Positions 992 through 42,295 of a stretch of 64,000 bases of DNA are shown here, piece after piece. The position numbers and the translations under genes were made by a program. How positions within the stretch are numbered: position 1 is the first letter of the stretch; each line of letters opens with the position of its first letter. Below the pieces are notes generated by a model that saw nothing but the letters and a program-made list of their open reading frames with translations, did no database searches and was not told where the DNA came from. The stretch comes from an uncultured Planctomycetia bacterium (GTDB lineage: Bacteria; Omnitrophota; Gorgyraeia; 1-14-0-20-64-10): NCBI GenBank assembly GCA_964597545.1, contig CAZQXN010000001.1, positions 133,655-197,654 of the forward strand, in the 5' to 3' direction.

Positions 992-3463
992 TTAGAATAC
1001 ATCAACATTCTCTGAGGCTAGAAGCACATTTCCAACCTGATCCAACCGAACAACCAGAAACCGCTTTGCCTGCCCGGGAACAAGGTCTTTGCTCAACACA
1101 CCTCTTGCGCGCTCGAGAAAGGTCTGTCGAGAAACGCGTTGGGGTGAATATCCCAGCGCGATGTACTTCTGGGCAGGAACACCAAGGCGGGCAGCCTCAT
1201 CTCCATACGCCATCATGGACCGAGCATGATAACGCAACCCTTCATTCCAAGCGCCCCCTTCCCATTCCCGCTCCACCCGGCACCCGCTCGCTGCCAGATA
1301 AGCTGCAAACTTCGGACATTCGCTTGCGTAAACGCCAAGGACCCGCAAGAAGCTGGGGGGGCTGACCCAGATCAACTCTCCGGATTGTTCGCAATGCTCA
1401 AAAACCATGCGCATTGTCTCTGGAAAGGACCAGGGAGCCGCGTTTCGCTGAATCGCCTGATCTACCAGAACGATCAATTCTCCTGCCGTCTGGCAACAGG
1501 AACGAGACAGGGACGCCAGCCCCTCCAGCTGCTGCTCCCTTTTCAAAGAGAACCAGGACTCGCGCAATGCGTCCCCTTCAGCGACAGCCTGATGGGCCGA
1601 TGGGGGAACTTCCAGGCGTGCCTGTTGAGCGAGCAAAACGGTGTATTTCAAGCTGTGGAGCGAAGCGAGCAGGGTGCGCACGCGCAGAGGGCGAATCCGA
1701 GCATAATATAGGAAATCAAAGGGTATTTTGACCAGCAGATAATCTACCAACATCCCTAGGGCGCAGCCGGAGACAAGTCTCTCGGGAACCTTCGGTTCGG
1801 GCAGGACGCTGCCCCAAAGATGCCGCAGGCGGAAGGTAGGGTACCAAGCAGGCAGATGGATCCAGGCAGACTCCGGGCAGAAATAGGGCAGGTGGGTTAG
1901 ATGCTTCTGTGCCCAATCCGGAAAGGCTGTGGGTTCAAATGGCGCAGGATCAACCGATCGGCCACCGGGGAAGACCACGATGAAATCGAGATCGGAGATC
2001 CCCGGCGTCTTGACCGCTCCAACCTGATAAATAGCAAGGGGAGGCTGGGGGAGTTCGGCCCAGACAGAAATAACCCGCTCTGTGATTTTCTCATAATCCG
2101 CCATGCAAGCTTCGGGCGGGAGATCTTCCAGGGAGCTTTGGGGAATGTCGTCGAAGTAATGAAATGCCGACCCCGCCCTGCCAAGGGAAGGCTTGGTAGA
2201 GTGGGGAACGCCATCTGTGCCGACCGATATCCTGCCGGAAGGAGATAGAATGTTCCTTCTCATTGCTTCCAGCAGACGCAAGACCCGTCCCGGATAGTCT
2301 GGACCGAGCACGTTGGCCGCTTCCTGTGCCCGCTGGCAACTGGATGGGCACCGGAGGAGCTGCCGGGTAAGCAACCCCGGCCACTGCAGCCAGCGAGCAG
2401 TTGCCACAAGCTGCTGGGACGGTTTTGGTCTTGGGCCGAGTTGTCTTCTGAGCCTAGAGGCTGTCCGAATGGGCTCCCAAACCTCCGAAGAGAAATCCCG
2501 CTCTGCCAGTGAGAAGGTTTCCCGCTTATAGCGGAAAGTGCCTGTCCGCCGCTGGAGATAGAGCGCAGGGAGAATCAAGGTGCAGCCCAGGATACACTCC
2601 AGCTCATGGCCGTCTCTCAAAACCAGAGGATCGGAAGGCCAACGCTCAAAGAGCGCCTGAAGGTCGTCCAACAGTCGATCCGTCACCCCTTCGGATGGAG
2701 AAGCGCAGAGCCAAAGCGCCTCGGAGAGGCCGGCGAGGTCCGCGCCGTAGCCAAACAAGACCGAAGGGAAAAGCGCCTCCGGGTAACGTCTAAAATCCAT
2801 CTCGGCCAGATAGAAAGGGCCGTGGTGCATGAAGGGATCAAAGGCATGGGTGAGCGTTAGGATCTGGGATGCCAGCCGGCGCAGGCGCAATAAGTTCTTG
2901 GGGCTTTTCAAGGCAGAGGTCCGTACGACAAAGGCCAAATCCATGTCGCTGAAACCCGGCACGTCGTCCAGGGTTGCAATGCTTCCATGAACCATCGCGC
3001 GCTTGAAAAAGGCCGCCCCCTCCTTCAGGAGAAGCCGCTGCAGCAGATGCACGGGCCCATATTTCCGCTCGTGTCCGCCTGATTGCATCCAACCCTCATA
3101 GGGCTGCCCGGATGAAAGCTGGCGGAACGCCGCCCCCGTTGGCAAAAACGCATCCCATTGGCAATAGGCGTAGGCGAGCGCTTCAGAGAAACGGTGCAGT
3201 GGAATCTTCTTTTGCGTGGAGGAGAAACTGAGCCGATGGGAAAGAATTCCTAGCTTGCGAAAAGCCCCCGAGACTCGCAGAAGGGATTCTGGGGTAAGAG
3301 ATCGTTTTTGTCCAAGATAGGATCTTGGCGATAACCCCGTCAGGCTGCCGTACAGAAAGTATTGAAGCGCATGGTACAGTTCGAGCTGGGCTGCTTGAGC
3401 ATTATCGAGATAACCGCTCTCCTCAGACACAACTGCTCTCACCCTGATCGCTCCCTCTTCCAA
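992..3463 (-). CDS. Large (823 aa) protein with two Pol-beta-type minimal nucleotidyltransferase motifs
   Basis: Two hG[GS]-x9-13-Dh[DE]h signatures: HGSIATLDDVPGFSDMDLAFVV and GAVKTPGISDLDFIVVF. Its start overlaps the upstream GT9-like gene by 25 nt, which places it in the glycan operon. Confidence 0.45.
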   Translation of the reverse strand: MEEGAIRVRAVVSEESGYLDNAQAAQLELYHALQYFLYGSLTGLSPRSYLGQKRSLTPESLLRVSGAFRKLGILSHRLSFSSTQKKIPLHRFSEALAYAYCQWDAFLPTGAAFRQLSSGQPYEGWMQSGGHERKYGPVHLLQRLLLKEGAAFFKRAMVHGSIATLDDVPGFSDMDLAFVVRTSALKSPKNLLRLRRLASQILTLTHAFDPFMHHGPFYLAEMDFRRYPEALFPSVLFGYGADLAGLSEALWLCASPSEGVTDRLLDDLQALFERWPSDPLVLRDGHELECILGCTLILPALYLQRRTGTFRYKRETFSLAERDFSSEVWEPIRTASRLRRQLGPRPKPSQQLVATARWLQWPGLLTRQLLRCPSSCQRAQEAANVLGPDYPGRVLRLLEAMRRNILSPSGRISVGTDGVPHSTKPSLGRAGSAFHYFDDIPQSSLEDLPPEACMADYEKITERVISVWAELPQPPLAIYQVGAVKTPGISDLDFIVVFPGGRSVDPAPFEPTAFPDWAQKHLTHLPYFCPESAWIHLPAWYPTFRLRHLWGSVLPEPKVPERLVSGCALGMLVDYLLVKIPFDFLYYARIRPLRVRTLLASLHSLKYTVLLAQQARLEVPPSAHQAVAEGDALRESWFSLKREQQLEGLASLSRSCCQTAGELIVLVDQAIQRNAAPWSFPETMRMVFEHCEQSGELIWVSPPSFLRVLGVYASECPKFAAYLAASGCRVEREWEGGAWNEGLRYHARSMMAYGDEAARLGVPAQKYIALGYSPQRVSRQTFLERARGVLSKDLVPGQAKRFLVVRLDQVGNVLLASENVDVF

Positions 3464-4416
3464 TCAAGAAACCGAGGCAGGATTATGGTTTCAAGCGCTT
3501 CATCTGGATTCACCGCGCTGGCGTTAAGCAAGCCGTTAGGAATCGGATTCTCTTTCCAGAGGGGTGGTGTCCAAAATCCTTTTTGAATCTCTTGAAAACC
3601 TACATCATCAAATAGATTGATGGTTGGAACCTGCGCATACCAGAAGAAGATTTCAAATCCACCTCGCCCGCCCAGGAACAGGTGGGCTTTCCTTCCAATT
3701 GCCAAAAGCGGACGAAGCCCAAGGCCCTTGCGATAACTGTCAACGGCCGAGACCGTCTTGGCTTCACGAAGAGGCGGTACCCTTTCGTGCTCAGTGGACC
3801 CCATGGCAAGGACGCGCACGTCGTCACCCATGATCTTGTTCTGGATAATGCGCTGATAAATCTGGTGCAGCTGAGCGGCGCTGCGACGGAAATGGATGGC
3901 GACCACAAATTTTTTGCCAAGCATGTGGCGCTCCCAAAAGCGTGCCGCAATGGTTTCGTCCTCCGGAGTAAAGAGTTCGGTCAAAATCTCTTGGTACTGT
4001 GAGGGCGTCGCCTGCCCTCCGTACCTCTTTGCGGCTTCGGGCGGATACCAATACTCGCCCAGGGCCTTGTTCAAGTCGGCCCCACGGAGTTCGTGTATGA
4101 AGGAAAAATTCTCCAGATATTCCTGTCTGTAGTTGACCTTGTCTCCATGAGCATCGGTCATGCGCCGTGCCGTGTCATAGGAAAGGCCGGCGGGGTTGTT
4201 CGGGGAATCGTCGTCTCGGTACAAGACGACGAGCTTTAGGTGGGGTGTGGCGCGCTTTGCGCGCTTTAAAAGAGGAGCCATCGAGATGATGTCCCCAAGG
4301 CCCCCATGAAGAATGATGACGCGTCTTCGGCCAAGCAAACAAGCCAGCCGATGCCGCAATTTGAACAGACCCCGGAGGACCAACGCGACCGGCCCGCGAG
4401 GCAAGATGCTCCTCAT
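3439..4416 (-). CDS. GT9-like (heptosyltransferase-family) glycosyltransferase
   Basis: VIILHGGLGDIISMAPLLKRAKRATPHLKLVVL resembles the GT9 N-terminal LGDxxxxxP signature. ATGA-type 4-nt overlap with the upstream gene. Confidence 0.5.
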   Translation of the reverse strand: MRSILPRGPVALVLRGLFKLRHRLACLLGRRRVIILHGGLGDIISMAPLLKRAKRATPHLKLVVLYRDDDSPNNPAGLSYDTARRMTDAHGDKVNYRQEYLENFSFIHELRGADLNKALGEYWYPPEAAKRYGGQATPSQYQEILTELFTPEDETIAARFWERHMLGKKFVVAIHFRRSAAQLHQIYQRIIQNKIMGDDVRVLAMGSTEHERVPPLREAKTVSAVDSYRKGLGLRPLLAIGRKAHLFLGGRGGFEIFFWYAQVPTINLFDDVGFQEIQKGFWTPPLWKENPIPNGLLNASAVNPDEALETIILPRFLDWKRERSG

Positions 4417-5348
4417 CCCTTTTCTTGCTCAACCGCTCGCTTCAATTCCTTCTTCCAGCCCTGGACTTGGCCGAGGTCCACATGAAAGAGCCAAACGCCC
4501 TGGGCTGCCAGGGCGGCTAATTCCGCAGCGCTGTTTGGATGCCCCCAGTACTGAATCTTGATTTGGTAGCGGGAAGCGGCTTTAACCGTATCTGCGTAGG
4601 ATGCTTGAAGGTCGCCGGCAAAGAAAGATTCATGGTGGTTGAAGATGTTGACGCCATGCCGGTATGCCTTCTTAAGTTCCTCCGCCAAGCCTCCCTGATG
4701 CTCATCCGGCTCTACGACCCAAATCTTGTAAGGGAAATCGTAAACCCGACAGTGAGCATCTATGTACCTCTCATTCACGTAGGGAATAATCCGATCCAAC
4801 GCGCCGCTGCAGGAGGCGGCCCGCTCCACCATCTTTTCACAAATGAACCTGCACAGCTTAGGGTCTCTCTTTTCCTTCCGGCGAGCAACATTCTCCTTGA
4901 TGTCCACGATGAGGTAGGTATCTGTGTAGCGTTTCATGAGTTGCATGACGTCATTCAAATCGAGCGGGGTGTACTTACCGTGGTATCTAAGCTTTTTGAA
5001 ATTTCGCAATGTCGTGCGTGAAATCTCCCCTTCAATCCCAAACCGATCGACCATCGGCGGATGAAAAGCAACCACTTGGTCATCTGCCGTAACGCACAGG
5101 TCAATCTCAAACACCTTGATGCCTTGACGGAGGCTGGACATCCATGCTTCCAGGGAATTCGTATACGCGCGTCCCTCGATGGTACCTAAGGCATAAGCGC
5201 TTAAGACCGGCGGTTCTCCAAATGCACTCAAATCTGGAGCGCGCTTGGGGGTGCGCGGCGGCAAGCGAAAGAGGCGCTTGAAACGCTGGAAGGGGCCCTT
5301 CATCTTCAGATCGGTCAATGCGCCATTTCGATAGAGCGATTGATCCAT
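4413..5348 (-). CDS. Glycerophosphodiester phosphodiesterase (GDPD)-like protein
   Basis: LGTIEGRAYTNSLEAW...GIKVFEIDLCVTADDQVVAFHP matches the GDPD/PI-PLC-X TIM-barrel signature. The start may instead be the internal Met (MKGPF) at 5303, which would remove the 34-nt overlap. Confidence 0.45.
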   Translation of the reverse strand: MDQSLYRNGALTDLKMKGPFQRFKRLFRLPPRTPKRAPDLSAFGEPPVLSAYALGTIEGRAYTNSLEAWMSSLRQGIKVFEIDLCVTADDQVVAFHPPMVDRFGIEGEISRTTLRNFKKLRYHGKYTPLDLNDVMQLMKRYTDTYLIVDIKENVARRKEKRDPKLCRFICEKMVERAASCSGALDRIIPYVNERYIDAHCRVYDFPYKIWVVEPDEHQGGLAEELKKAYRHGVNIFNHHESFFAGDLQASYADTVKAASRYQIKIQYWGHPNSAAELAALAAQGVWLFHVDLGQVQGWKKELKRAVEQEKG

Positions 5349-7402
5349 CGGACGGCGCTGGCCAGCGCGTAGAGGGCCTGCTCCTCGCTGATCCTAAGCC
5401 GAAAAGGAATCAGGCGAACCAGATGGAGGCCCATATAGAACAGGCCTTTGAGATACGCTTGCTCTTCAGAACAACCCAGGATATTCGACCAACGCTTCAG
5501 GCAGAGCTTCAGAATCTCCTCCTTTGGTGCATCTGCCGCGTACAGGAGGACAACCCCCTTTGCGTCGGAAAAATCGCACAGCTTGAGGTTATGGGACACC
5601 CACTCTTCGTATCTGCCAACCAACGATTGGAACAATTTTCCAATGTCCAGCTCCGGCGCGTCAAAGTAGTCTGCCCCGTCCATGTCGATGACCTTCACGT
5701 CCCCCTCAAAACACATGATGTTCTCAAAGGTCAAATCCCCATGGACAATGCAGAGGCGGCTGGGTGCGAGATGGCGAATCGTCGGAAGCGCCGCTGCTTG
5801 CGAGAGCAAGCTCCTCAGCCCAGGATACACCTTGCCATCGATGCGGACCTCTCCGCCGCCAGCGAGCTGCGCAAGCCGAGGGTGGGTCTGCAGGGCGTCC
5901 AGCTTTGGATAAATCTTCTTGGCTAAATGTGCCGCGAGCCAGTCGCCGCTTGCAGTGCTGGTGTGAACGCTGGTGGCGTAGAGGTGATCCTCAAGAAGCT
6001 CCAACAACCGCTGCAAACTTGAGAGCTTTTCCTGTGTCGAGCACGCAGAGAGCAGCTTGTGCTTGGGGAGGTACTCCATGTCGTAGTAATACTCAAATGA
6101 GTTGTCGCTCTCTCCGTAGAGTCCCGGGACAAGCTTCGCACAAATGCGGGAGAACCGCTCTAGGGTTTGATACTGACCCTTGAGCTTTCCATATCCCAAA
6201 GCAAGGTCTGTCTGCTTCGAAGCCTGCTTTCGAATGAACAGCTTCTCCTCGTCTGCCACCAGGAACGTCTCGGAGAAGGAACCCCCTTTAAGGCGTTTCA
6301 ACGGTGTTGGATGGAGCGGTTGAATATCAACATGGGCAAGCCCCTGGTCTCGCTTCACCTCGTACGACGCCGCCTGCGGCACCAGTATGGCTGAGGGTTT
6401 TCGATCGTTCACCAAGTATCTCGGGCCGCTGGGTAATCCCATCATGAGATCCTGGAAGGGTACGCCGGCCTTCAGCAAGGCCCCCTTCAGGGCGGCTTCC
6501 TCGGACGGATGCCTGGAGGTCATGAGAATAATGCGATAGCCCTTCTGGGTCCAGTCTCTGAGCTTCTCCGAGCTTCCAGGCAACAACTCAAGGGGATGAT
6601 CGTAGCTGGGTTTGTCTTCGTGCTTGACCAGGGTACCGTCGATGTCACAGAAGATCGCACCCGAGAAGATGTTTCGCTGGATGCGCACCTGCAATAAACG
6701 CTTCTTGTCTCCAAAAAACTCCGCTTGCCGAATGCGTACCGCCTGGATTGTTTTTCCTTCGGCGATCATCTGTTTGACGACTTCTGAGATATAGAGGCTG
6801 TGGCTGCGCCGAATCCGCTCAGTTACAGCAGCGGCGTCTGCAAAGTAGTAGCATCCGATGACGCCGACAAACTCCCCTTCGCCCGCAGGGAGCTCCTTTT
6901 CGGCGATTCCGGTTATGCGATCGCGCTCGGCAAGCGAAGCGACGCTCCAGGCTTTGAGGTCTTCGCCCTGGAGACTCCATACCGGAAGCACGCAATCCGC
7001 CTTGCTGTCCTCGCCAATCAGCTCAAAGAGCGGGTCCACATTCACCGAATGATCGCAGTCGCAGATGATCGCTCGACCGCTCAGGGCGCCCTCTTGGACT
7101 GCCAACGCCAATGTCTCGGCCGGCCCCTGCGTTGGCCGCTTAAGGTGGATGGTATCGAATGGGATGCCCCCGAGGATACCCTTCAGTCGAGCGCTGACCG
7201 CAAACTCTGATTCCTGTTCCTCCAGGTAAACAAAAACCACCCTGCCGATCTTGGACATCCACTTCATAAAAGGCCGGATGGCTGCCTCGATAAAAGTTTC
7301 CTCGCCGACCTTGAGGAACGGTTTGTACTTATAGCCGAATCGAGCGCCCCGTCCTGCCATCGGGAAAATGAGCGTAAGCGGATCCTCGAGCTTTTTCTTC
7401 AT
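5315..7402 (-). CDS. Trifunctional fusion: N-terminal sugar/head-group nucleotidyltransferase, HAD phosphatase, C-terminal APH/choline-kinase-like kinase
   Basis: N-terminal PMAGRGARFG (GxGxR NTP-transferase motif). Middle IFCDIDGTLV...LMTSR...NDRKP (HAD motifs I-III). C-terminal CIVHGDLTFENIM...VIDMDGAD (Brenner HGDxxxxN plus DxD kinase motifs). Confidence 0.6.
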   Translation of the reverse strand: MKKKLEDPLTLIFPMAGRGARFGYKYKPFLKVGEETFIEAAIRPFMKWMSKIGRVVFVYLEEQESEFAVSARLKGILGGIPFDTIHLKRPTQGPAETLALAVQEGALSGRAIICDCDHSVNVDPLFELIGEDSKADCVLPVWSLQGEDLKAWSVASLAERDRITGIAEKELPAGEGEFVGVIGCYYFADAAAVTERIRRSHSLYISEVVKQMIAEGKTIQAVRIRQAEFFGDKKRLLQVRIQRNIFSGAIFCDIDGTLVKHEDKPSYDHPLELLPGSSEKLRDWTQKGYRIILMTSRHPSEEAALKGALLKAGVPFQDLMMGLPSGPRYLVNDRKPSAILVPQAASYEVKRDQGLAHVDIQPLHPTPLKRLKGGSFSETFLVADEEKLFIRKQASKQTDLALGYGKLKGQYQTLERFSRICAKLVPGLYGESDNSFEYYYDMEYLPKHKLLSACSTQEKLSSLQRLLELLEDHLYATSVHTSTASGDWLAAHLAKKIYPKLDALQTHPRLAQLAGGGEVRIDGKVYPGLRSLLSQAAALPTIRHLAPSRLCIVHGDLTFENIMCFEGDVKVIDMDGADYFDAPELDIGKLFQSLVGRYEEWVSHNLKLCDFSDAKGVVLLYAADAPKEEILKLCLKRWSNILGCSEEQAYLKGLFYMGLHLVRLIPFRLRISEEQALYALASAVRWINRSIEMAH

Positions 7403-8109
7403 ATCTGGTACCCGGAAGTGGCGGCGTCTCGGTGGAACATCCTGACAGTTTCCAACGAAAATTCAGCCAGATCCTTGCCGAACAAATCCAGTTTGGGAAG
7501 CATATCGTAGGGGACGGTGATGATGTGGCAACCCTGTTGTGCAGCAACAACAATGCTGTAGATCTCCCTGCAGCTTGCCCAGAGCACCTCCAGTTTGGGC
7601 TTCGCGCGGGCTCCCTCCAGCGCATGGCGAATGATCGGGCCAGGATCTACCCCCGCGTCTGCAATGCGGCCTGCGAAAACGGAGAGGATGGCGGATGCAT
7701 CTGGATGAAACTGGGGAATCAGGCTATCGATCTGCTCTTTTGTGAAGACAGCCGTCACGTTGACCTTAACCCTGGCCACAGACAAAGAGGCAATCAGCTC
7801 TGTTGAGGGGCGACCGGAGGTATCTGTAGCCGGGATCTTGACATAGACGTTCTCGCCCCAGCTTGCCAGCTTCAGCGCCTGCTCTTTCATCTCGCCAAAC
7901 GTATCCGCAAAAACCTCCAAGGAAACCGGCAGTCCCTGGGCAACATCGAGCAAGCTCTTGGCGAACCTCTCATAATCCCTTACCTTCGCCTTCGCCATGA
8001 GGGTAGGATTGGTGGTGAAGCCCTTTACGCAATACTGCCGGATGAGGCGGGGGACGTCCCCCAGGTTGGCCCCATCGGCAAAGATCTTAATGTCTGGGAT
8101 CTTTCCCAT
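7399..8109 (-). CDS. Transaldolase-family protein, short FSA/TalC-like form
   Basis: GFTTNPTLM matches the TTNPSL transaldolase motif. Length of 236 aa fits the fructose-6-phosphate-aldolase-like subfamily. Confidence 0.7.
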   Translation of the reverse strand: MGKIPDIKIFADGANLGDVPRLIRQYCVKGFTTNPTLMAKAKVRDYERFAKSLLDVAQGLPVSLEVFADTFGEMKEQALKLASWGENVYVKIPATDTSGRPSTELIASLSVARVKVNVTAVFTKEQIDSLIPQFHPDASAILSVFAGRIADAGVDPGPIIRHALEGARAKPKLEVLWASCREIYSIVVAAQQGCHIITVPYDMLPKLDLFGKDLAEFSLETVRMFHRDAATSGYQI

Positions 8110-8771
8110 TACCGCTTCTCCAGGATGGTCAGCCGGTCTGCCTCTTGGCGTCTGACATATTTGCCCTGGCAGATCTGCTCATCCACCGCCCTGCGAGGCC
8201 CCCCATCCCTTGCCACATAATAACGGTCTGGATCTCTACCCAGACTGGTGCTATGGACAGCGACAATCCCTTTTTCCGACAATAAACCATACAGGATGAA
8301 CAAATCTCGGTTAAGCGCTGCATAGGTATGATTCGCGTCATGAAAGGCCATATCGATCGGCTTGGGAACAAGGCGCCCCGAATCCTTTGCTAATCCAACG
8401 ATGAGTTGGTAGTTGCCAAATCTATGGCTTAAGGCCTGGGCTACTAAATCGTAACTGGGCCAACCGCTGATGTGGGTGTTTGGCTCCACATCCAAGATGC
8501 GGTCAAAACAGTCAAGGCCGTAAAATCTCGTCTTCAGCCCGCTCTGATCACGGCAACTCAACAGCAAACTGAAGGAACCGGCCCAACCTACTCCTATTTC
8601 CAGATAAGTTCTGGGTCGCGCTTCCAGGAATGAGTCCTGAAGCAGCTGTCTTTCTTCGGGTAACAAATCACTTATAAAGAGCTTGCTGGGGTCGCCTCCC
8701 TTAAAATTCTCTTGGGTTGGCACGATGGGCGCAAAGGGGTTTGCATTTCCTAAATGACTGGAGGATGCCAT
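8109..8771 (-). CDS. Class I SAM-dependent methyltransferase (CmcI/Methyltransf_24-like, sugar O-methyltransferase type)
   Basis: YLEIGVGWAGSFSLLL is a SAM-binding motif I. Length and context fit sugar O-methyltransferases. Confidence 0.5.
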   Translation of the reverse strand: MASSSHLGNANPFAPIVPTQENFKGGDPSKLFISDLLPEERQLLQDSFLEARPRTYLEIGVGWAGSFSLLLSCRDQSGLKTRFYGLDCFDRILDVEPNTHISGWPSYDLVAQALSHRFGNYQLIVGLAKDSGRLVPKPIDMAFHDANHTYAALNRDLFILYGLLSEKGIVAVHSTSLGRDPDRYYVARDGGPRRAVDEQICQGKYVRRQEADRLTILEKR

Positions 8772-8806: not shown

Positions 8807-10066
8807 CTAGCATGAACGGATGGTGTGCCATTTGTGCGGAATGAAACAGGAACCGCACCTGGATTGGCTAAGATAGTTGTGACCTGTTTGGTAGGGGTCG
8901 CAGCGTGTTACCTCAAACTGCGCAGCGCGGTCCCAGAAATCGAGTGGCCGCAACCCCCTAATCCACAGCGCCAAGTCAAAGGTGTATCGGCCTACGCCAA
9001 GGGGGAGAGGGCCTATGGTTAACCCGATGATCTGCTCCTCCGGGGCAAAGTAAACATTGCTCATCTGGTTTGCGGCGCCATGAGACACGGTGCTGCCGTC
9101 GTAGCTTCGAATAAACCAGTCAACATTGAAGCTGCCTGCATTCACCCTCCCTTTCAGCCCAAAGCGGATTTCCATGATGTCTCCGTAACAGAAGCTGTAG
9201 CAAGGGGTTGCGTCTTTGCTCAGCAGCTCTACCCACTCCACGTAGAGCTCCGCATTGGCTGGGGGGGCGCTGCGATGAATCTTCCCTTTTCTCAAGTGTC
9301 CTTCAGTTGCCCCGGACAGCTCGTAGGCTTGAGTGACATCAGAAACTTCCCCGATTGCCTGGATTCCGCCGCGCTCGAGCCAGATGGCCCTAGAACAGAG
9401 TTTTCGGACTGACGTTATATTGTGGCTGATAAAAAGAACCGTGCGCCCTCCCTTGGCCACCTCTCCGATCTTCCCGAGGCATTTCTTTTGGAAAGCCATG
9501 TCCCCTACGGCTAGGACTTCGTCAACCAGCAGGATCTCCGGATCCAGCTGGGCGGCAACCGCAAATGCCAGGCGCATGTACATGCCGCTGGAATAGAATT
9601 TGACTGGCGTGTCGAGGAATCGCTGCAGTTCGGAAAACTCGACGATCTCATCGAATTTTTTCTGGATCTCTCGCCTCCCCATACCAAGGATGGCGCCGTT
9701 GAGATAGATGTTTTCCCGGCCGGTCAGCTCAGGGTGGAAGCCTGTTCCTACTTCGAGCAGAGAGCCAATTCGTCCATAAACCTCGGCATGGCCTCTGGTG
9801 GGTTCCGTAATCTGAGAGAGGATCTTCAAAAGCGTGCTCTTGCCGGCACCATTGCGGCCAACGACGCCAATGACTTCACCCCGATCGACCTCAAAGGAAA
9901 CATCCCTGAGGGCCCAGATGTGTCCCCGGGTGCGACGGGGAAATCGCTTGAAGCGACTCCGGACAAAATTAGCGATGAGATCCCTCAAGGTCTCGTAGGC
10001 GTTGGTCGCTTCTCCGATGGCGTAGCGCTTGCTGATGCTTTTAACTCGGATGGCTATGTTGGGCAT
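8807..10066 (-). CDS. wzt: Polysaccharide ABC exporter ATP-binding protein (Wzt/TagH type) with C-terminal extension domain
   Basis: Walker A GVVGRNGAGKSTLLKIL, ABC signature and Walker B. An extra ~170-aa C-terminal domain is typical of Wzt glycan-cap-binding domains. Confidence 0.8.
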   Translation of the reverse strand: MPNIAIRVKSISKRYAIGEATNAYETLRDLIANFVRSRFKRFPRRTRGHIWALRDVSFEVDRGEVIGVVGRNGAGKSTLLKILSQITEPTRGHAEVYGRIGSLLEVGTGFHPELTGRENIYLNGAILGMGRREIQKKFDEIVEFSELQRFLDTPVKFYSSGMYMRLAFAVAAQLDPEILLVDEVLAVGDMAFQKKCLGKIGEVAKGGRTVLFISHNITSVRKLCSRAIWLERGGIQAIGEVSDVTQAYELSGATEGHLRKGKIHRSAPPANAELYVEWVELLSKDATPCYSFCYGDIMEIRFGLKGRVNAGSFNVDWFIRSYDGSTVSHGAANQMSNVYFAPEEQIIGLTIGPLPLGVGRYTFDLALWIRGLRPLDFWDRAAQFEVTRCDPYQTGHNYLSQSRCGSCFIPHKWHTIRSC

Positions 10067-10069
10067 GGG

Positions 10070-10936
10070 TTACACCACATCTGCGAAAATCTTTTCCATT
10101 CTCCGAAAATAGAACGCGCCGCTAACCAACAAGGCGGCGGAGACAATCATTGAAAGAAGTAGCATGTTGCGCGGAGGGTAGGTTCCCAGGAGAGCCCACC
10201 GGAAGCCCTCAACCACGCCCACCATCGGATTGATCCCGTAGAGGGTGCGCCAGGGTTCGCTCAGCAGGCTGCTTGGATAAATAACGGGTGTGGCAAACAT
10301 CCAGAACTGGATTAGGAAGGGGACGATGTGGCGCACATCTCTAAAGCGTACGTTGAGCGCGGAAAGCCACAGGCCCACGCCCAGAGCAGTCGTCAGAGCC
10401 AGAAGGAGGAACGCCGGGAAGGTGAGGATTCGGTAGGTTAACTCAACGTCGTAGTAGACCATCATGAGGAGCAGCATGACGAAAGCGATGCAGAAATCGA
10501 AGATGCCGGAGAAAACACCGGCAACGGGAATGGTGAGGCGGGGGAAGTAGACCTTTCGGAGGAGGTTGGCACTGCCAACCATGCTGTTGGAGCTCTGGCC
10601 GAGGGACTGAGAAAAGTAGTTCCAGGGCAGCAGTGCCGCATAGCTGAAGATGGGATAGGGAACGCCATCGGATGGCATCTTGGCGAGACGGCCAAAGAAG
10701 ATGCTGAAGACCACCATCGTGGAAAAGGGCTGAATGATGGCCCAGGCAGCACCCAGTGTTGTCTGTTTGTAACGGACCTTGACGTCCCGCCAAACCAAGA
10801 AATAGAGGAGCTCGCGGAATTCCCACAACTCCCTGAAATCAATACCCCTCCAACCCTTGGAGGGAGCGATAACCTCCTTGTGGAGGGCTTCGTCTTTTGC
10901 GTGACGAGGTGTATGCTTGTTTCTGTCTTTGAACAT
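10070..10936 (-). CDS. wzm: ABC-2 type polysaccharide exporter permease (Wzm/TagG type)
   Basis: 288-aa, six-helix ABC-2 permease immediately upstream of wzt, 3 nt apart. Confidence 0.75.
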   Translation of the reverse strand: MFKDRNKHTPRHAKDEALHKEVIAPSKGWRGIDFRELWEFRELLYFLVWRDVKVRYKQTTLGAAWAIIQPFSTMVVFSIFFGRLAKMPSDGVPYPIFSYAALLPWNYFSQSLGQSSNSMVGSANLLRKVYFPRLTIPVAGVFSGIFDFCIAFVMLLLMMVYYDVELTYRILTFPAFLLLALTTALGVGLWLSALNVRFRDVRHIVPFLIQFWMFATPVIYPSSLLSEPWRTLYGINPMVGVVEGFRWALLGTYPPRNMLLLSMIVSAALLVSGAFYFRRMEKIFADVV

Positions 10937-11036: not shown

Positions 11037-12040
11037 TGTCAAGGGTAACACTCAAAGATAACAAAAACACTACGCTGCGAGCTGCTTCTGAAGTACCGTT
11101 TGTAGCCGCTCATAGGGTGTCTGGCTCCCTAGGGCCCAATGGGGCCGCTGGTAATTGTAGTAATCCTGCCACCGCTGGAGCTTGGTATTTAACTCTTCCG
11201 TTGAGGCGTAGGTCAGCCCACCGTAGAACTCTTCGTCATCGGTCTTATGGCTGCGTTCCACCTTGCCGTTGAGTCTGGGGCTACGGGGCTTGATGTATCG
11301 ATGCTGAAGACCCTTATCTAGGCAATGCCAATGGAAGCCGCTCTGGAACTCGCTACCGTTGTCTGTACGGACAATTTGAACCTGGAAAGGCATCTGAGTC
11401 AGGACGTGATCCAAAAAGGCGATAGCGTTGACCTGAGTGGTCCTTTCGTAGATCCTAAGGACTCGAAGCCGGGTGGTGTCGTCCAGAGCCGTAAACTGGT
11501 AGCGCTTTGGTCGACCGTCTCGCTTGCCACCCGGGACCTTAACGTCAATCTGGACATGGCGTCCAGGAACAGCTTGCTCGTAGCGCTTAAAGAGCCTTGC
11601 ACCCCGTATCCGTTCGCCCCTCAGCAACCGGTTTTCGCCCTCAACCTTGAGGATGTGGTAGATCGTCGCGGTCGTGCAGGTAACTCCATGGTAGCGCTTG
11701 AGGTACATATGGATCCTGGAAGGTCCGAAGCGGTAGGTTCTTCTCAGATGCAAGATGAGCTCCCTGGCCTCCCGGGGTGTTCCTCGAGGACTGCGGTGGG
11801 GCCTTCGGCTACGATCTTTGAGACCCTCAACTCCATGCGCTTCGTATCGGTGCAACCACTTGTAGTAAATCCGCCTGGAGATGCCAAAATGTCGACATGC
11901 CCTAGATACGTTGATCTTTTGAGCGTAGGCGAACCAGGCAAGCCTGAGTTTGATACAGCGGTCTTCATGAGACATTCGTTAACCCTCCGTAAAAACAACT
12001 TCAAAACCAATACAACTACCATAAAGTGTTAACCATGTCT
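11037..12040. mobile_element. IS481-family insertion sequence (~1.0 kb) with imperfect terminal inverted repeats
   Basis: A single DDE transposase ORF fills the element. The left end TGTCAAGGGTAACACTCAAAG and right end ...AAAGTGTTAACCATGTC(TC) share an imperfect GGTAACACT / AGTGTTAACC inverted repeat. Boundaries are +-10 bp. No clear target-site duplication is resolved. Confidence 0.55.
11070..11975 (-). CDS. IS481-family DDE transposase
   Basis: N-terminal HTH (ACRHFGISRRIYYKWLHRY) plus integrase-core rve domain (QIDVK...TALDDTTR...VRTDNGSEF...ERSHKTDDEEF) gives the DDE triad. Confidence 0.8.
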   Translation of the reverse strand: MSHEDRCIKLRLAWFAYAQKINVSRACRHFGISRRIYYKWLHRYEAHGVEGLKDRSRRPHRSPRGTPREARELILHLRRTYRFGPSRIHMYLKRYHGVTCTTATIYHILKVEGENRLLRGERIRGARLFKRYEQAVPGRHVQIDVKVPGGKRDGRPKRYQFTALDDTTRLRVLRIYERTTQVNAIAFLDHVLTQMPFQVQIVRTDNGSEFQSGFHWHCLDKGLQHRYIKPRSPRLNGKVERSHKTDDEEFYGGLTYASTEELNTKLQRWQDYYNYQRPHWALGSQTPYERLQTVLQKQLAA

Positions 12041-12156
12041 CTTAATTCTCCACGTTCAAAAGAGCTCCTCTGGCGTCGAGCACACCCTCTGTGCTACAAT
12101 AAAGTGGAACCTTAGTATTATCGTACACTTGATAGAAGCTCAAATTACCCCATCTT

Positions 12157-12837
12157 ATGAAAACGGCGGAACGAGAAGCGGCACGGAAGCTGCGTAGGGC
12201 TGGCCACTCGATGAGAGAAATCGCAGGCCAGATCAACTGCGCTAAGAGCTCAATCAGCAGATGGCTTCAAGATATTCCTTTGCGCCCTCAGCAAATTGAA
12301 CGATTGAACTCAAACCAGGACAGGGGCCGGGCTAAAGCTGCAAATCATCCCAATAGCCCTAAAATGGTATGGGCGAAGATACGCAACGAAACCATGCAAA
12401 TGGCTTCAAGGGAGCTGCCCCTTCGCTGTTCCATGGAAATGCTGAAAATTTCGGGCGCCTGCTTGTATTGGGCGGAGGGCTACAGGGCCAGCTTTAACAT
12501 GGTCAACTTCAGCAACTCAGACCCATCCATGATCAGGTTCATGATGGCCTTCTTCCGAAGAGTTTGCAGAGTACCGCCTGCTAAATTCCGAGGCGTGGTC
12601 CATATCCATCCTCACTTAAACAGCAACGCTGCTTGTAAATATTGGTCTCAGATAAGCGGAATACCCCTAAACCAATTTCATAGAACTCAGTTCGCTATTA
12701 GCCGGTCCAGTCGGCAAAAACGGGATTCGCTGCCTCGGGGAACCTTCAGAATTGTCATCTCGGATACGCATCTTCAATGCCGGATCAGAGGCTGGATTGA
12801 AGGAATGCAGCGGTGGGCGAATAGCTCAGTTGGTTAG
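12157..12837 (+). CDS. Hypothetical protein with N-terminal HTH
   Basis: MREIAGQINCAKSSISRWL is HTH-like and the rest is unassigned. The 3' end overlaps the tRNA-Val gene by 23 nt, so the true stop or even the reality of this ORF is uncertain. Confidence 0.35.
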   Translation: MKTAEREAARKLRRAGHSMREIAGQINCAKSSISRWLQDIPLRPQQIERLNSNQDRGRAKAANHPNSPKMVWAKIRNETMQMASRELPLRCSMEMLKISGACLYWAEGYRASFNMVNFSNSDPSMIRFMMAFFRRVCRVPPAKFRGVVHIHPHLNSNAACKYWSQISGIPLNQFHRTQFAISRSSRQKRDSLPRGTFRIVISDTHLQCRIRGWIEGMQRWANSSVG

Positions 12838-12891
12838 AGCACTCGGCTTACATCCGAGAGGTCACAGGTTCGAGCCCTGTTTCGCCCACCA
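12815..12891 (+). tRNA. tRNA-Val (anticodon TAC)
   Basis: Cloverleaf read by hand. Acceptor GGGCGAA/UUCGCCC, D-arm GCUCAGUUGGUUAGAGC, anticodon stem CUCGG/CCGAG with loop CUUACAU, T-arm ACAGG-UUCGAGC-CCUGU, encoded CCA. Confidence 0.85.
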
Positions 12892-12951
12892 CCTTTCTGA
12901 AAAGACAGACTGGCCAATTCTCTCAATTTGCTCTAAGATGGATACTCTTCC

Positions 12952-13030
12952 GGGGTCGTAGCTTAGTCCGGTTCAAAGCGCCTGCCTGTCACGCAGGAGA
13001 GCGCGGGTTCAAATCCCGTCGGCCCCGCCA
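12952..13030 (+). tRNA. tRNA-Asp (anticodon GTC)
   Basis: Acceptor GGGGUCG/CGGCCCC, anticodon stem CCUGC/GCAGG with loop CUGUCAC, T-loop UUCAAAU, discriminator G, encoded CCA. Confidence 0.85.
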
Positions 13031-13063: not shown

Positions 13064-13882
13064 GTGAATCCACTGGAGCGTTTCTGTACCTCCCTGCGTC
13101 ATCACCCAGTTTTTGAAAATATCCCGCTCTGGGATGTTGTTCGGCCCGCCTACAACACCCTCCTTAACATCATCGCATCCAAGAGAGGTCTTGAGCGAAA
13201 TATGAACGGTATGGATTCCATGCGCCTCCATCCGAGGTGGCGGGGAGTTCAGGAAAACTATGAGCCTCTCGTTTGGAAACACATGATGAACCATGTGCGG
13301 AAAGGGGATACTGTTGTCGATGTTGGAGCTTTTATCGGACTGTACGCAATCGCCTTAGCAAAGCGAGTGGGGCCTGGGGGGCTTGTTCTGGCTTTCGAGC
13401 CAGATCCTTCAACCTTCGGATGGCTCCAACAACACGTCGCGCTGAATCATGTAGGGGTTAGGGTAAAGCTCTTCCAATCGGCGGTAGGCCATCAAGTGGG
13501 CAAAGCAAATTTCATGTCAGGAATAAACTCCCAGGCCCACGTAGAAGCAAACCAATATGTCGGAATCAAGGTACCTATTACGACTCTCGATAAGGAACTC
13601 CCAAATCAGCGAGTAGATGTCCTTAAGATAGACGTCGAAGGCTTTGAGGAAAAGGTGCTTCAGGGCGCCATTCGGCTCCTTAAGGATCCGATTCGTTGCC
13701 CTCGGAGCATCTACATAGAGATGCATCCCTATGCGTGGAAAGAGCTGGGGAGCGCGGGTAAATCGTTGTTACGTTTGCTCAGAGATTGCGATTACAAGAT
13801 TTCAAAGCTGGACGGGCATCCCGCCGAGAATATTGATGATTACGGCGAGATTGTGGCGAGCAGGAATCTAGATAACCGATAG
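13064..13882 (+). CDS. FkbM-family SAM methyltransferase
   Basis: DVGAFIGLYAIALAKRVGPGGLVLAFEPDPSTF...VDVLKIDVEGFEEKVLQG matches the FkbM-domain architecture. Confidence 0.7.
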   Translation: MNPLERFCTSLRHHPVFENIPLWDVVRPAYNTLLNIIASKRGLERNMNGMDSMRLHPRWRGVQENYEPLVWKHMMNHVRKGDTVVDVGAFIGLYAIALAKRVGPGGLVLAFEPDPSTFGWLQQHVALNHVGVRVKLFQSAVGHQVGKANFMSGINSQAHVEANQYVGIKVPITTLDKELPNQRVDVLKIDVEGFEEKVLQGAIRLLKDPIRCPRSIYIEMHPYAWKELGSAGKSLLRLLRDCDYKISKLDGHPAENIDDYGEIVASRNLDNR

Positions 13883-17375: not shown

Positions 17376-17440
17376 AAAACCTGCTGGAAAGACCAATCCC
17401 TCGTTCGTCTTTGCAATCACCTGATAAGGAGAGCCAATTC

Positions 17441-20400: not shown

Positions 20401-20680
20401 CGGCCGCCCACACATTGTGGATGCCATCAAGAACGGGGAGATTCAATTGGTGGTCAATACCCCCAGCGGCAAGGCAGCCCAAGAGGATGATTCCTACATC
20501 CGCAAGGCCGCCATCAAGTACAAGATCCCTTACATTACGACCCCGGCCGCGGCACTGGCTACCGCCAAAGGGATTGCCGCCCGGAGCAAGGGAGAGGCTG
20601 GGGCGAAATCGCTACAGCGCTATCACCGTGACATCGCCGGAGCCGGGAGCAAGTGCCCGCCCGCTACCGTGGATGCGTAG
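17441..20680 (+). CDS. carB: Carbamoyl-phosphate synthase large subunit (paralog 1, standalone)
   Basis: [37 protein letters not shown] is the canonical CarB N-terminus. Two ATP-grasp halves plus an MGS-like C-terminus. AAGGAG SD sits 7 nt before the ATG at 17441. The TTG at 17411 is rejected. Confidence 0.9.
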   Translation: MPKRQDINKVMIIGSGPIVIGQACEFDYSGTQACKALRSLGYKIVLVNSNPATIMTDPGMADATYIEPLNTRALEEVLAAERPDGLLPNLGGQTGLNLSFELAKSGILKQHGTQVIGVNIDAIERGEDRTAFKETMNRLGIEMPKSEAVNNVEDAERVAEILGYPVVVRPAYTMGGTGGGLAYNTEELRTVASRGLSASRANQVLIEESVLGWEELELEVVRDSKNQMITVCFIENVDAMGVHTGDSYCTAPMLTIDPALQKRLQKHSYDIVEAIGVIGGTNIQFAHDPKTGRVVVIEINPRTSRSSALASKATGFPIAFVSSLLAGGLTMDEIPYWRDGTLEKYTPSGEYVVVKFARWAFEKFRGIEDKLGTQMRAVGEAMSIGKNYKEALQKSIRSLEIKRYGLGFAKDFHQKSLDELFALLATPTSERQFLMYEALRKGADVQKLYALTAIKPWFIEQMKALVELEMELIKHRGALPPDDLLKQAKQDGFADKYLAQILNTKEEEIRNRRKALGVVEAWEPVPVSGVENAAYYYSTYNAPDRVAVSKRKKIMVLGGGPNRIGQGIEFDYCCVHAAFSIRDAGYESIMVNCNPETVSTDYDTSDKLYFEPLTVEDVLSIYEKEKPEGVIVQFGGQTPLNIAQELAEAGVKVLGTSPATIDLAEDRDRFRQMMRKLNIPQPESGMASNLEEALETAKTIGYPLMVRPSYVLGGRAMEVVEDEEMLKEYVQAAVDVSPERPILIDRFLENAIEAEADALSDGTDAFVPAVMEHIELAGVHSGDSACVIPPVSIPQQHLDIIRDYTRKIAIELGVVGLMNIQYAIANDTVYVLEANPRASRTVPLVSKVCNVPMARLATQLILGQKLSDLKLTHSKIFHFGVKEAVFPFNMFPETDPLLGPEMRSTGEVLGMADSFGLAFFKAQEATQLILPLKGAVLFTIAEKNKPQVVKSARIFSELGFSIRATEGTQQFLTKHGIASELILKIGHGRPHIVDAIKNGEIQLVVNTPSGKAAQEDDSYIRKAAIKYKIPYITTPAAALATAKGIAARSKGEAGAKSLQRYHRDIAGAGSKCPPATVDA

Positions 20681-23929: not shown

Positions 23930-23933
23930 CCAT

Positions 23934-24677: not shown

Positions 24678-24689
24678 GAAGCAACCCCT

Positions 24690-41900: not shown

Positions 41901-42295
41901 AAATCGTCACGATCCTCAGCCTTCTGAATGGCCTGCTGGTCGGCGCCGATCATCTCTACGTTGTAGCGCTTGAGCGCCCCACTCTGGGCTAACTGCATGG
42001 CGACATTTAAGCCGGTTTGTCCGCCCAGGGTAGGCAGCAGGGCATCCGGGCGCTCCCGAGCGATGACCTTCTCGATCGCTTCAGGGGTAATGGGTTCAAT
42101 GTAGGTTCGATCCGCAAATTCCGGATCGGTCATGATGGTGGCGGGGTTGGAGTTGACCAGAACCACCGAATAGCCCTCTTCTCTCAAAGCCTTGCAGGCT
42201 TGCGTCCCGGAATAGTCGAACTCGCAGGCTTGGGAGATGATGATCGGACCCGAGCCGATGATCAGAATCTTTTTGAGGTCAGTCCGCTTGGGAAT
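38981..42295 (-). CDS. carB: Carbamoyl-phosphate synthase large subunit (paralog 2, pyrimidine-operon copy) with non-canonical start
   Basis: Full-length CarB (...[37 protein letters not shown]...). An in-frame TAA at 42320..42322 lies 9 codons upstream of the conserved PKRTD. No ATG/GTG/TTG occurs between them. The only candidate start is ATT at 42295 with GGAGA 7 nt upstream. The track starts at an internal TTG at 42187. Confidence 0.8.

What the first reader, a model, noticed from the sequence alone, without database searches (positions are those of the whole stretch)
5315..8109. NTase-HAD phosphatase-APH-like kinase triple fusion next to an FSA-type aldolase: candidate novel sugar (or head-group) activation pathway
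One polypeptide combines the three activities needed to turn a phosphorylated precursor into an NDP-activated donor: kinase, phosphatase and nucleotidyltransferase.

The AmgK/MupP/MurU salvage route and heptose HddA/GmhB/HddC routes use the same three activities, but on separate proteins and with different kinase folds.

The adjacent transaldolase-family FSA-like gene (TTNPTL motif) could build the carbon skeleton.

The fusion sits in a Wzm/Wzt glycan operon, so the product is probably a non-standard glycan residue or a phospho-head-group such as phosphocholine (LicA/LicC-like logic).
Basis: partly seen in the sequence, partly recalled or inferred. Interest (0 to 1): 0.7.

Follow-up and report, generated by a model that had tools for sequence, protein, structure and literature searches.

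The report
Transaldolase-linked three-in-one sugar-activating enzyme
One 695-residue protein joins a nucleotidyltransferase, a small phosphatase and a sugar kinase, is read out together with a transaldolase, and belongs to an undescribed two-gene cassette found in many bacteria and giant viruses that most likely makes an unidentified nucleotide-activated sugar for surface glycans.

Summary
ORF 5315..7402 (-) encodes NTase + capless HAD phosphatase + APH-fold kinase with all catalytic motifs intact. It overlaps by 4 nt the stop of a transaldolase gene (7399..8109) inside a Wzm/Wzt operon.

The fusion is not a one-off. I found 57 non-redundant loci in bacteria and in giant-virus or other viral contigs. 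Of these, 52 carry the transaldolase and 41 have it abutting on the same strand. Some proteins fuse all four domains.

The closest characterised relatives are phage AfhE (NTase-kinase) and AfhF (small HAD), which make UDP-arabinofuranose from arabinose-5-P through a 1,5-bisphosphate. Profile comparison gives 99% probability, with the HAD appearing as an insertion into an AfhE-like frame. Here a transaldolase replaces the phage isomerase as supplier of the sugar phosphate.

- The aldolase in this window is TAL-type (Glu/Phe), not FSA-type.
- AmgK already has this kinase fold.
- Phosphocholine is unlikely.

The sugar itself is unknown; a C7/C8 sugar or a ketofuranose is inferred. I rate this a new variant of a recently described kind.

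The parts
5315..7402 (-). Trifunctional NTase-HAD-kinase gene (695 aa; stop codon at 5315-5317)
   Evidence: ORF list. Full-length homologues at 32-57% identity. AF2 pLDDT 88.4. hhalign against an AfhE-like profile gives Prob 99.2%, E 3e-19.
6674..7378 (-). N-terminal sugar-phosphate nucleotidyltransferase domain (residues ~9-243), with canonical G17-x-G-x-R21-F motif and D115/D117
6368..6664 (-). Small capless HAD phosphatase domain (residues ~247-345), with D253-x-D255-G-T, T295-x-R297 and N332-D333-R-K335
5318..6319 (-). C-terminal APH/ChoK-fold small-molecule kinase domain (residues ~362-695), with K392, H554-G-D556-xxxx-N561 and D573
7399..8109 (-). Transaldolase (236 aa), translationally coupled to the fusion by an ATGA overlap. 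Schiff-base Lys91; Glu65/Phe145 TAL signature; phosphate-binding Arg148, Ser179, Arg181.
   Evidence: Adjacent to the fusion in 52 of 57 dereplicated loci. Fused to it in P0291, P0310 and P0307.
8109..8771 (-). Methyltransf_24 SAM methyltransferase; its stop overlaps the transaldolase start by 1 nt. Probable accessory of the cassette.
   Evidence: (E 4.4e-9). The same family lies near the cassette in 5 loci and is fused to the C-terminus of a fusion homologue, P0295.
8807..10066 (-). Wzt ABC-transporter ATPase with a C-terminal Wzt_C carbohydrate-binding domain (context)
10070..10936 (-). Wzm ABC-2 permease (context; first gene of the operon)
4413..5348 (-). GDPD-like protein directly downstream (context; not conserved with the cassette elsewhere)
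   Evidence: PF03009, E 8e-8. Not in any conserved neighbour cluster.
992..4416 (-). Two unannotatable ORFs (325 aa and 823 aa) that close the operon. They are candidate consumers of the product; their function is unknown.
   Evidence: No Pfam, NCBIfam or PDB matches.

Best explanation
The 695-aa protein is a trifunctional sugar-activating enzyme that works with the co-translated transaldolase as a two-gene cassette.

Proposed steps:
1. The transaldolase builds a sugar ω-phosphate from pentose-phosphate-pathway intermediates, using a fructose-6-P or sedoheptulose-7-P donor and an aldose-phosphate acceptor.
2. The C-terminal APH-fold kinase phosphorylates the anomeric hydroxyl, giving a 1(or 2),ω-bisphosphate.
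3. The central capless HAD domain removes the ω-phosphate.
4. The N-terminal RmlA-like domain condenses the resulting anomeric phosphate with an NTP to give an NDP-sugar.
5. In this organism the NDP-sugar feeds the polysaccharide exported by the Wzm/Wzt transporter, possibly after methylation by the adjacent methyltransferase.

Status of each point:
- Shown here: the domain folds, the intact catalytic motifs, homology to AfhE/AfhF-type enzymes, and the conserved linkage and fusion with the transaldolase.
- Inferred by homology with AfhE/AfhF, and by analogy with the heptose (HddA/GmhB/HddC) and lincosamide octose (LmbR/N/P/K/O) routes: the order of the steps.
- Unknown: the identity of the sugar. 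Most likely candidates are a C7 or C8 sugar, or the ketofuranose itself. The nucleotide is also unknown.
For: - Folds and motifs.
- Homology to the characterised system: A1 against an AfhE-like NTase-kinase profile gives Prob 99.2%, E 3e-19. The NTase and kinase align collinearly and the HAD appears as an insertion. One member of that profile (L023) is 32% identical to RB69 gp52 and sits between an arabinose-5-P isomerase and a small HAD. The HAD domain's best solved-structure match is AfhF.
- Biochemistry of AfhE/AfhF: Araf5P to Araf1,5P2 to Araf1P to UDP-Araf (PMC13326640).
- Coupling to the transaldolase: 52 of 57 non-redundant loci, 41 abutting on the same strand; ATGA overlap in the window; four-domain NTase-HAD-kinase-TAL proteins.
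- The NTase activity is needed. All 8 lineages whose fused N-domain has lost the R-F motif carry a stand-alone close paralogue with the motif. None of the 45 canonical ones does (Fisher p = 1e-9; at least two gene orders).
- An NDP-sugar product is suggested because SDR epimerase/dehydratase genes lie beside the cassette in 22 of 57 loci.
- In related modules without a transaldolase, the partner gene is a sugar-phosphate isomerase. This fits a 'supplier + activator' design.
- The lincosamide precedent for a transaldolase feeding a kinase/phosphatase/NTase route: PMC12945683 and PMC4351081.
Against: - No biochemical data exist for any member of this family.
- A transaldolase yields ketose phosphates, yet no isomerase is conserved with the cassette (1 of 57 loci). 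Either the ketose is activated directly, which is unprecedented, or a housekeeping isomerase is used.
- Sequence similarity of the NTase domain to RB69 gp53 alone was not detectable. The link rests on profiles and folds.
- Inter-domain geometry in the model is uncertain (pTM 0.59).
- No recognisable glycosyltransferase lies in this operon between Wzt and its end. The downstream genes are a GDPD-like protein and two unknowns, so the way the product is used is open.
- 31 of 46 cassette transaldolases, mostly viral, carry Gln at the catalytic Glu position and altered phosphate-binding residues. The family's aldolase chemistry may therefore not be uniform.
Confidence: 0.6

Rival explanations
1. 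Same three activities in the salvage order of MupP/AmgK/MurU. The HAD first removes the ω-phosphate from the transaldolase product. The kinase then phosphorylates the free sugar at the anomeric position, and the NTase makes the NDP-sugar. No bisphosphate intermediate forms.
Against: For the homologous AfhE/AfhF pair, the bisphosphate order is the one reported as shown. The HAD is of the capless 1xpj/AfhF and HAD-IIIA type, the subfamily that includes GmhB (own knowledge), not the capped HAD_2 type that MupP belongs to (own knowledge).
Confidence: 0.15
2. Head-group pathway (LicA/LicC or TarI-like logic). The NTase makes a CDP-linked alcohol or CDP-ketose through the terminal phosphate. The residue is then transferred as a phosphodiester substituent of the glycan. 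The kinase and phosphatase prepare or proof-read the precursor.
Against: Sugar-1-P NTases rank above LicC and IspD. No LicB/LicD/TagF-like genes were found. The GDPD-like gene is not conserved with the cassette. A universally linked transaldolase makes sugar phosphates, not choline or ethanolamine. SDR NDP-sugar-modifying enzymes are the commonest further neighbours.
Confidence: 0.1
3. Chain-terminator machinery. The kinase domain phosphorylates the non-reducing end of the O-polysaccharide and the neighbouring methyltransferase caps it (WbdD-like). This would create the signal read by the Wzt C-terminal domain.
For: Wzt carries a Wzt_C binding domain. A Methyltransf_24 gene abuts the cassette and is fused to a homologue. 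WbdD combines a kinase and a methyltransferase (own knowledge).
Against: The cassette is conserved with a transaldolase in giant-virus and other loci that lack Wzm/Wzt, including Wzx/Wzy-type loci. The kinase is always fused to an NTase and a HAD. It is homologous to the sugar-phosphate kinase of AfhE.
Confidence: 0.05

Closest known systems
Phage AfhE/AfhF UDP-D-arabinofuranose pathway (E. coli phage HY126; homologues RB69 gp52:53/gp51 and DLP3 gp82/gp81; PMC13326640)
   Different: Here the HAD is inserted between the NTase and the kinase, giving one 695-aa protein. The supplier enzyme is a transaldolase, not an arabinose-5-P isomerase. The context is surface-glycan synthesis (Wzm/Wzt; giant-virus glycan loci), not DNA hypermodification. 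The substrate is therefore probably not arabinose-5-P. Direct identity to the RB69 proteins is very low.
Lincosamide octose pathway LmbR/LmbN/LmbP/LmbK/LmbO giving GDP-D-erythro-α-D-gluco-octose (PMC12945683, PMC4351081)
   Same: It is the only documented route I found in which a dedicated transaldolase builds the sugar phosphate that is then processed by kinase, phosphatase and NTase.
   Different: The Lmb enzymes are separate proteins. The route includes an isomerase (LmbN) that has no conserved counterpart here. I could not compare the LmbP, LmbK or LmbO sequences.
NDP-heptose pathways GmhA/HddA(HldE)/GmhB/HddC
   Different: The kinase there has a GHMP or ribokinase fold, not APH (own knowledge). 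Those routes require the SIS isomerase GmhA and have no transaldolase.
AmgK/MupP/MurU MurNAc salvage
   Same: An APH-fold anomeric kinase plus a MurU-type minimal NTase plus a HAD phosphatase.
   Different: Separate proteins, and the phosphatase acts first. MupP is a capped HAD_2-type enzyme (own knowledge). There is no aldolase, and the function is peptidoglycan recycling.
Small transaldolases of the TIGR02134 type, and T. acidophilum transaldolase
   Same: Fold, Schiff-base Lys, catalytic Glu, Phe in place of the FSA Tyr, and phosphate-binding residues.
   Different: This one is dedicated to a glycan cassette rather than to the pentose phosphate pathway. Many cassette-linked relatives have Gln at the Glu site while keeping the Phe.

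Membership tests
AfhE/AfhF-type sugar-phosphate activation enzymes | NTase domain and APH-like kinase domain on one polypeptide, N- to C-terminal in that order | tested here: met
   Domain order NTase...kinase. Collinear profile match to AfhE-like proteins, Prob 99.2%, E 3e-19.
AfhE/AfhF-type sugar-phosphate activation enzymes | Small capless Mg-dependent HAD phosphatase of the 1xpj/AfhF fold with an intact DxD motif | tested here: met
AfhE/AfhF-type sugar-phosphate activation enzymes | Direct sequence similarity to characterised or near-characterised members (RB69 gp51, gp52, gp53) | tested here: inconclusive
   Kinase Prob 91.6%, E 8e-7. HAD Prob 62.6%, E 7e-5. NTase shows no match. The link is firm only through intermediate profiles.
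AfhE/AfhF-type sugar-phosphate activation enzymes | Partner arabinose-5-phosphate isomerase and DNA-arabinosylation genes | tested here: not met
   No SIS gene was found among the window ORFs scanned. SIS is adjacent in only 1 of 57 cassette loci. The partner is a transaldolase.
AfhE/AfhF-type sugar-phosphate activation enzymes | Substrate D-arabinofuranose 5-phosphate, product UDP-Araf | not testable with these tools
   Needs enzyme assays.
Transaldolase (EC 2.2.1.2) versus fructose-6-phosphate aldolase | Schiff-base Lys plus catalytic Glu, and Phe where FSA has Tyr (FSA: Gln + Tyr) | tested here: met
   K91, E65 and F145 align with TacTal K86, E60 and F132. This is the TAL signature, so FSA membership is not met.
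LicA/LicC phosphocholine activation | Choline kinase + CTP:phosphocholine cytidylyltransferase accompanied by LicB/LicD | tested here: not met
   The folds are compatible, but no LicB/LicD-like genes were found in the window or in related loci. The universal partner is a transaldolase.
GmhA/HddA/GmhB/HddC heptose pathway | GHMP or ribokinase-type heptose-7-P kinase and SIS isomerase GmhA | tested here: not met
   The kinase has the APH fold. GmhA-like genes are not conserved with the cassette.
AmgK/MupP/MurU | Capped HAD_2-type MurNAc-6-P phosphatase; peptidoglycan-recycling context | tested here: not met
   The HAD is capless, of the PNKP/1xpj type. The context is a Wzm/Wzt glycan operon.
Lincosamide-type octose pathway | Transaldolase + isomerase + kinase + phosphatase + NTase | tested here: inconclusive
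   Four of the five activities are present and the isomerase is absent.

The most novel reading that the evidence does not exclude
The cassette activates the transaldolase product directly as a ketose, with no isomerase. Every transaldolase product made from a D-aldose phosphate has the D-arabino configuration at C3-C5. Its furanose form is therefore a 1-C-hydroxymethyl analogue of the D-arabinofuranose 5-phosphate used by AfhE. The kinase would make a 2,ω-bisphosphate (of the fructose-2,6-bisphosphate type), the HAD a ketose-2-phosphate, and the NTase an NDP-ketofuranose (NDP-sedoheptulose, NDP-octulose or NDP-fructose). To my knowledge no biosynthetic route to such a donor has been established. 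A corollary follows: many 'transaldolase auxiliary metabolic genes' of giant viruses would be glycan-precursor enzymes rather than boosters of the host pentose phosphate pathway.
Probability: 0.25. Interest if true: 0.85.

Novelty: new variant of a known kind. Interest (0 to 1): 0.62.

Why it matters
If the cassette works as proposed, it defines an uncharacterised and widespread route to a nucleotide sugar. The profile search found 349 cluster representatives at E <= 1e-30 (a count that includes fragments and stand-alone NTase paralogues), and I collected 57 non-redundant loci. Hosts span Myxococcota, Planctomycetota, Proteobacteria, Bacteroidota and many giant-virus or other viral contigs.

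It would add a third type of 'supplier' (a transaldolase) to the AfhE/AfhF design described for phage DNA arabinosylation. That would link the phage DNA-modification pathway to bacterial O-antigen and giant-virus glycan synthesis.

It gives a concrete, cheap in vitro experiment for finding a possibly new activated sugar. The ketose sugars found in some capsules and lipopolysaccharides still lack an established donor, to my knowledge.

It also cautions against reading viral transaldolase genes simply as central-carbon auxiliary metabolic genes.

Tried and rejected
- Direct PDB sequence search with the single protein: only marginal hits.
- tblastn against GenBank phages: no full-length relative, only HAD-size or NTase-HAD pieces.
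- hhalign of A1 against single RB69 proteins: weak for the HAD, nothing for the NTase. I had to go through intermediate profiles.
- A conserved isomerase, glycosyltransferase or other third partner, sought by all-against-all clustering of neighbours: nothing beyond the transaldolase, SDR enzymes, a ~270-aa unknown family, and FkbM and Methyltransf_24 methyltransferases.
- The ~270-aa family: no relation to the window's WavE-like protein and only faint DUF7796 matches.
- The 325-aa and 823-aa downstream ORFs: no Pfam, NCBIfam or PDB match.
- Promoter and terminator scans: at chance level.
- Literature searches for this fusion, or for a transaldolase in O-antigen or giant-virus glycan loci: nothing relevant.
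- Chance adjacency of a housekeeping transaldolase: rejected on 52 of 57 loci plus the domain fusions.
Full report
**1. What is there**

The finding covers two minus-strand ORFs: 5315..7402 (695 aa) and 7399..8109 (236 aa). They lie in a tightly packed minus-strand operon:
- Wzm, 10070..10936
- Wzt with a Wzt_C domain, 8807..10066
- a Methyltransf_24 methyltransferase, 8109..8771
- the transaldolase-family gene
- the 695-aa gene
- a GDPD-like gene, 4413..5348
- two ORFs of 325 and 823 aa with no detectable family

The transaldolase stop and the fusion start overlap in ATGA. The methyltransferase stop and the transaldolase start share one base. An IS481-type transposase sits just upstream of Wzm. 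The rest of the window is ordinary bacterial chromosome: pyrimidine synthesis genes, a UDP-GlcNAc acyltransferase (LpxA-type) gene and tRNAs.

**2. The three domains are real and look catalytically competent**

Library HMMs give only weak, collinear hits: NTP_transf_3, then HAD/LNS2/HAD-IIIA, then APH/fructosamine kinase. An AlphaFold model built on 32 homologues is confident (pLDDT 88.4).

- MurU 19.6, LicC 19.6, IspD 17.7, MobA only 14.5

In the alignment these residues are invariant or nearly so:
- kinase Lys392, the Brenner motif H554-G-D556-x4-N561, and Asp573
- HAD motif D253-x-D255-G-T, T295-x-R297 and N332-D333-x-K335
- NTase T91/G93/P94/T97 and D115/D117

The window's protein has the canonical P-M-A-G-R-G-A-R-F-G loop.

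**3. It is a family, and the transaldolase belongs to it**

The word-indexed search found 141 relatives, the best 120 of which are mostly full-length at 32-57% identity. None carries a functional name. An exhaustive profile search found 349 cluster representatives at E <= 1e-30. Scans of genomes, metagenomes and IMG/VR gave 78 fusion loci, or 57 after 90% dereplication. Named hosts include Kofleriaceae, Sandaracinaceae, Pirellulales, Planctomycetaceae, Alpha- and Gammaproteobacteria and Bacteroidota. There are also about 40 viral contigs, seven of them labelled giant-virus MAGs, with GC 22-41% apart from one contig at 53%.

In 52 of the 57 loci a transaldolase gene lies within a few kb. In 41 it abuts the fusion on the same strand, either upstream or downstream. 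Of the five exceptions, one fusion is cut by its contig edge and two lie on short contigs. Three independent cluster representatives are four-domain proteins, NTase-HAD-kinase-TAL. Another carries a C-terminal Methyltransf_24 domain of the same family as the window's upstream gene.

No other partner is conserved. The next most frequent neighbours are:
- NDP-sugar epimerase/dehydratase SDRs, 22 of 57 loci
- an unknown ~270-aa family, 17 loci
- FkbM methyltransferases, 13 loci

A SIS isomerase is adjacent in only one cassette locus.

**4. An internal control for the NTase**

Eight non-redundant fusions have lost the R-F of the nucleotide-binding loop, for example AGQSAHEG and AERN--ADG. All eight carry a stand-alone ~230-260-aa gene in the cassette. 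That gene is a close paralogue of the fused N-domain (E 1e-66 to 1e-84 against the fusion profile) and has the canonical FPMAG-G-RFG. None of the 45 fusions with the canonical loop has such a paralogue (Fisher p = 1e-9).

The cases are not phylogenetically independent. They do occur with two different gene orders (paralogue upstream of the transaldolase, or downstream of the fusion), so at least two events are likely. The simplest reading is that NTase activity is indispensable to the cassette and that the window's fused domain is the active one.

**5. The aldolase is a transaldolase, not an FSA**

Alignment with Thermoplasma acidophilum transaldolase gives these equivalences:

| Window residue | TacTal residue |
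|---|---|
| D12 | D6 |
| N34 | N28 |
| E65 | E60 |
| K91 | K86 |
| F145 | F132 |
| R148 | R135 |
| S179 / R181 | S167 / R169 |

FSA has Gln and Tyr where transaldolases have Glu and Phe (established enzymology, own knowledge). The window's enzyme should therefore transfer a dihydroxyacetone unit from F6P or S7P to an aldose phosphate. It should not use free dihydroxyacetone.

Across the cassette-linked enzymes, 15 of 46 share this canonical pattern. The other 31, mostly viral, have Gln at the Glu site, keep the Phe, and vary the phosphate-binding residues. This is unexplained.

**6. The closest known system**

The AfhF hit led to PMC13326640. In phage HY126 and its relatives RB69 and DLP3:
- an arabinose-5-P isomerase makes Araf5P
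- AfhE, with an N-terminal NTase and a C-terminal kinase, phosphorylates it to Araf-1,5-P2
- the small HAD AfhF removes the 5-phosphate
- the AfhE N-domain makes UDP-Araf for DNA arabinosylation

Single RB69 proteins compare weakly with the fusion profile: kinase Prob 91.6%, HAD Prob 62.6%, NTase no match. The link becomes firm through intermediates. My scans had collected NTase-kinase proteins of ~510-560 aa sitting next to stand-alone ~120-aa HADs. The one in a Rhodoferax contig (L023) lies between an arabinose-5-P-isomerase-like gene and such a HAD, and is 32% identical to RB69 gp52. A profile of eight of these proteins matches the fusion profile with Prob 99.2%, E 3e-19. The NTase and kinase halves align collinearly, and the fusion's HAD region is unmatched, i.e. 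an insertion. The stand-alone HADs match the fusion's HAD region at about E 1e-36. A second, different NTase-HAD-kinase fusion occurs in a giant-virus MAG. It matches the fusion profile at Prob 99.2%, and its HAD is nearer to RB69 gp51.

In the modules without a transaldolase, the partner is a SIS isomerase, either KdsD-like or GmhA-like. The design is therefore modular: a supplier of a sugar ω-phosphate plus the activator. The window's family uses a transaldolase as the supplier. The only documented pathway I found with that logic is lincosamide octose synthesis. There LmbR (transaldolase), LmbN (isomerase), LmbP (kinase), LmbK (phosphatase) and LmbO (NTase) yield GDP-octose.

**7. Mechanism proposed and its limits**

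Proposed sequence:
1. Transaldolase product (a sugar ω-phosphate).
2. Anomeric phosphorylation by the kinase domain.
3. ω-Dephosphorylation by the HAD domain.
4. Nucleotidylyl transfer.
5. An NDP-sugar that feeds the Wzm/Wzt-exported glycan, perhaps methylated.

The step order is inferred from AfhE/AfhF. The salvage order (phosphatase first) is the main rival.

The sugar is not identified. A dedicated transaldolase argues for a product that normal metabolism does not supply in quantity: sedoheptulose-7-P or an octulose-8-P, rather than F6P. The absence of a conserved isomerase leaves two options. A housekeeping GmhA-type enzyme could convert the ketose, which is unlikely for giant viruses of eukaryotes. 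Alternatively the ketofuranose is activated directly. The second option is chemically reasonable, because transaldolase products have the D-arabino configuration at C3-C5. They thus resemble AfhE's substrate with an extra hydroxymethyl group at the anomeric carbon. I know of no established route to an NDP-ketose donor of that kind.

A head-group (LicA/LicC-like) reading and a WbdD-like terminator reading are kept as minor rivals. Neither explains the universal transaldolase, the SDR neighbours, or the conservation outside ABC-transporter loci.

**8. Novelty and verdict**

The kind of enzyme, an NTase-kinase plus a small HAD acting through a sugar bisphosphate, is known from recent phage work (PMC13326640). 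The transaldolase-coupled triple fusion, its glycan context and its spread in bacteria and giant viruses are not described in the literature I could search. I rate it a new variant of a known kind. Interest is moderate to high because a simple assay could reveal a new activated sugar.

Noticed in passing
window 22898..25415 (-): A second, separate activation-like gene set: a WavE-like protein (343 aa), an NTP_transferase (247 aa; matches the fusion profile at positions 5-232, E 9e-20) and a HAD_2 hydrolase (241 aa). HAD_2-NTP_transferase fusion proteins of ~455 aa lie 1-2 kb from the cassette, or from its two-domain relatives, in several metagenomic and viral contigs (L038, L048, L075, L085, L122).
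   Followed up: partly
related loci, e.g. L128:12051-12755, L144:2678-3379, L035:4078-4779: 31 of 46 cassette-linked transaldolases, mostly on viral contigs, have Gln at the catalytic Glu position but keep the Phe that distinguishes TAL from FSA. They also vary the phosphate-binding Arg/Ser/Arg. This matches neither the TAL nor the FSA signature.
   Followed up: partly
L145:12712-13521, L134:3452-4264, L152:9152-9979 and 14 other loci: An unannotated ~270-aa family abuts the cassette in 17 of 57 loci. Its invariant residues are D37, Y119-D120, R126 and D128, and it gives faint DUF7796 matches. It may be the transferase that uses the product. It is absent from the window.
   Followed up: partly
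L126:5185-7101 (-), giant-virus MAG: A second, different NTase-HAD-kinase triple fusion (638 aa) lies on the same viral contig as a cassette copy. hhalign to the family gives Prob 99.2%. Its HAD is 30% identical to RB69 gp51, so the triple fusion may have arisen more than once.
   Followed up: partly
L018:10744-12681, L020:3497-5404, L024:10732-12594 (Gemmiger, Oscillospiraceae, Sphingomonas): The related kinase domain is fused to an N-terminal LPG_synthase_TM (MprF-like) membrane domain and preceded by a stand-alone NTase gene. This is a different and possibly lipid-linked use of the same kinase/NTase pair.
   Followed up: no
window 992..3463 (-): The 823-aa ORF has no family or structure match. 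By eye it contains two G-[FI]-S-D-[ML]-D-[LF] stretches (GFSDMDLAFVV, GISDLDFIVVF) that resemble the Pol-beta-type nucleotidyltransferase motif. Pfam NTP_transf_2 scores only E 0.059.
   Followed up: partly
window 11070..13030: An IS481-family transposase (11070..11975, -) lies directly upstream of Wzm. It is followed by an HTH_38 ORF and by tRNA-Val and tRNA-Asp (12815..13030). The glycan operon may sit at a mobile or variable junction.
   Followed up: no
window 17411..20680 (+) and 38981..42187 (-): Two full-length carbamoyl-phosphate synthetase large-subunit genes lie in one 64-kb window. The second sits within a pyrimidine biosynthesis cluster.
   Followed up: no
window 13064..13882 (+), 27268..28155 (-): FkbM-family methyltransferase genes. 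The same family lies near the cassette in 13 of 57 loci, which suggests that the glycans involved are often methylated.
   Followed up: partly
window 52244..58597 (+): A very long ORF (2117 aa) that I did not examine.
   Followed up: no
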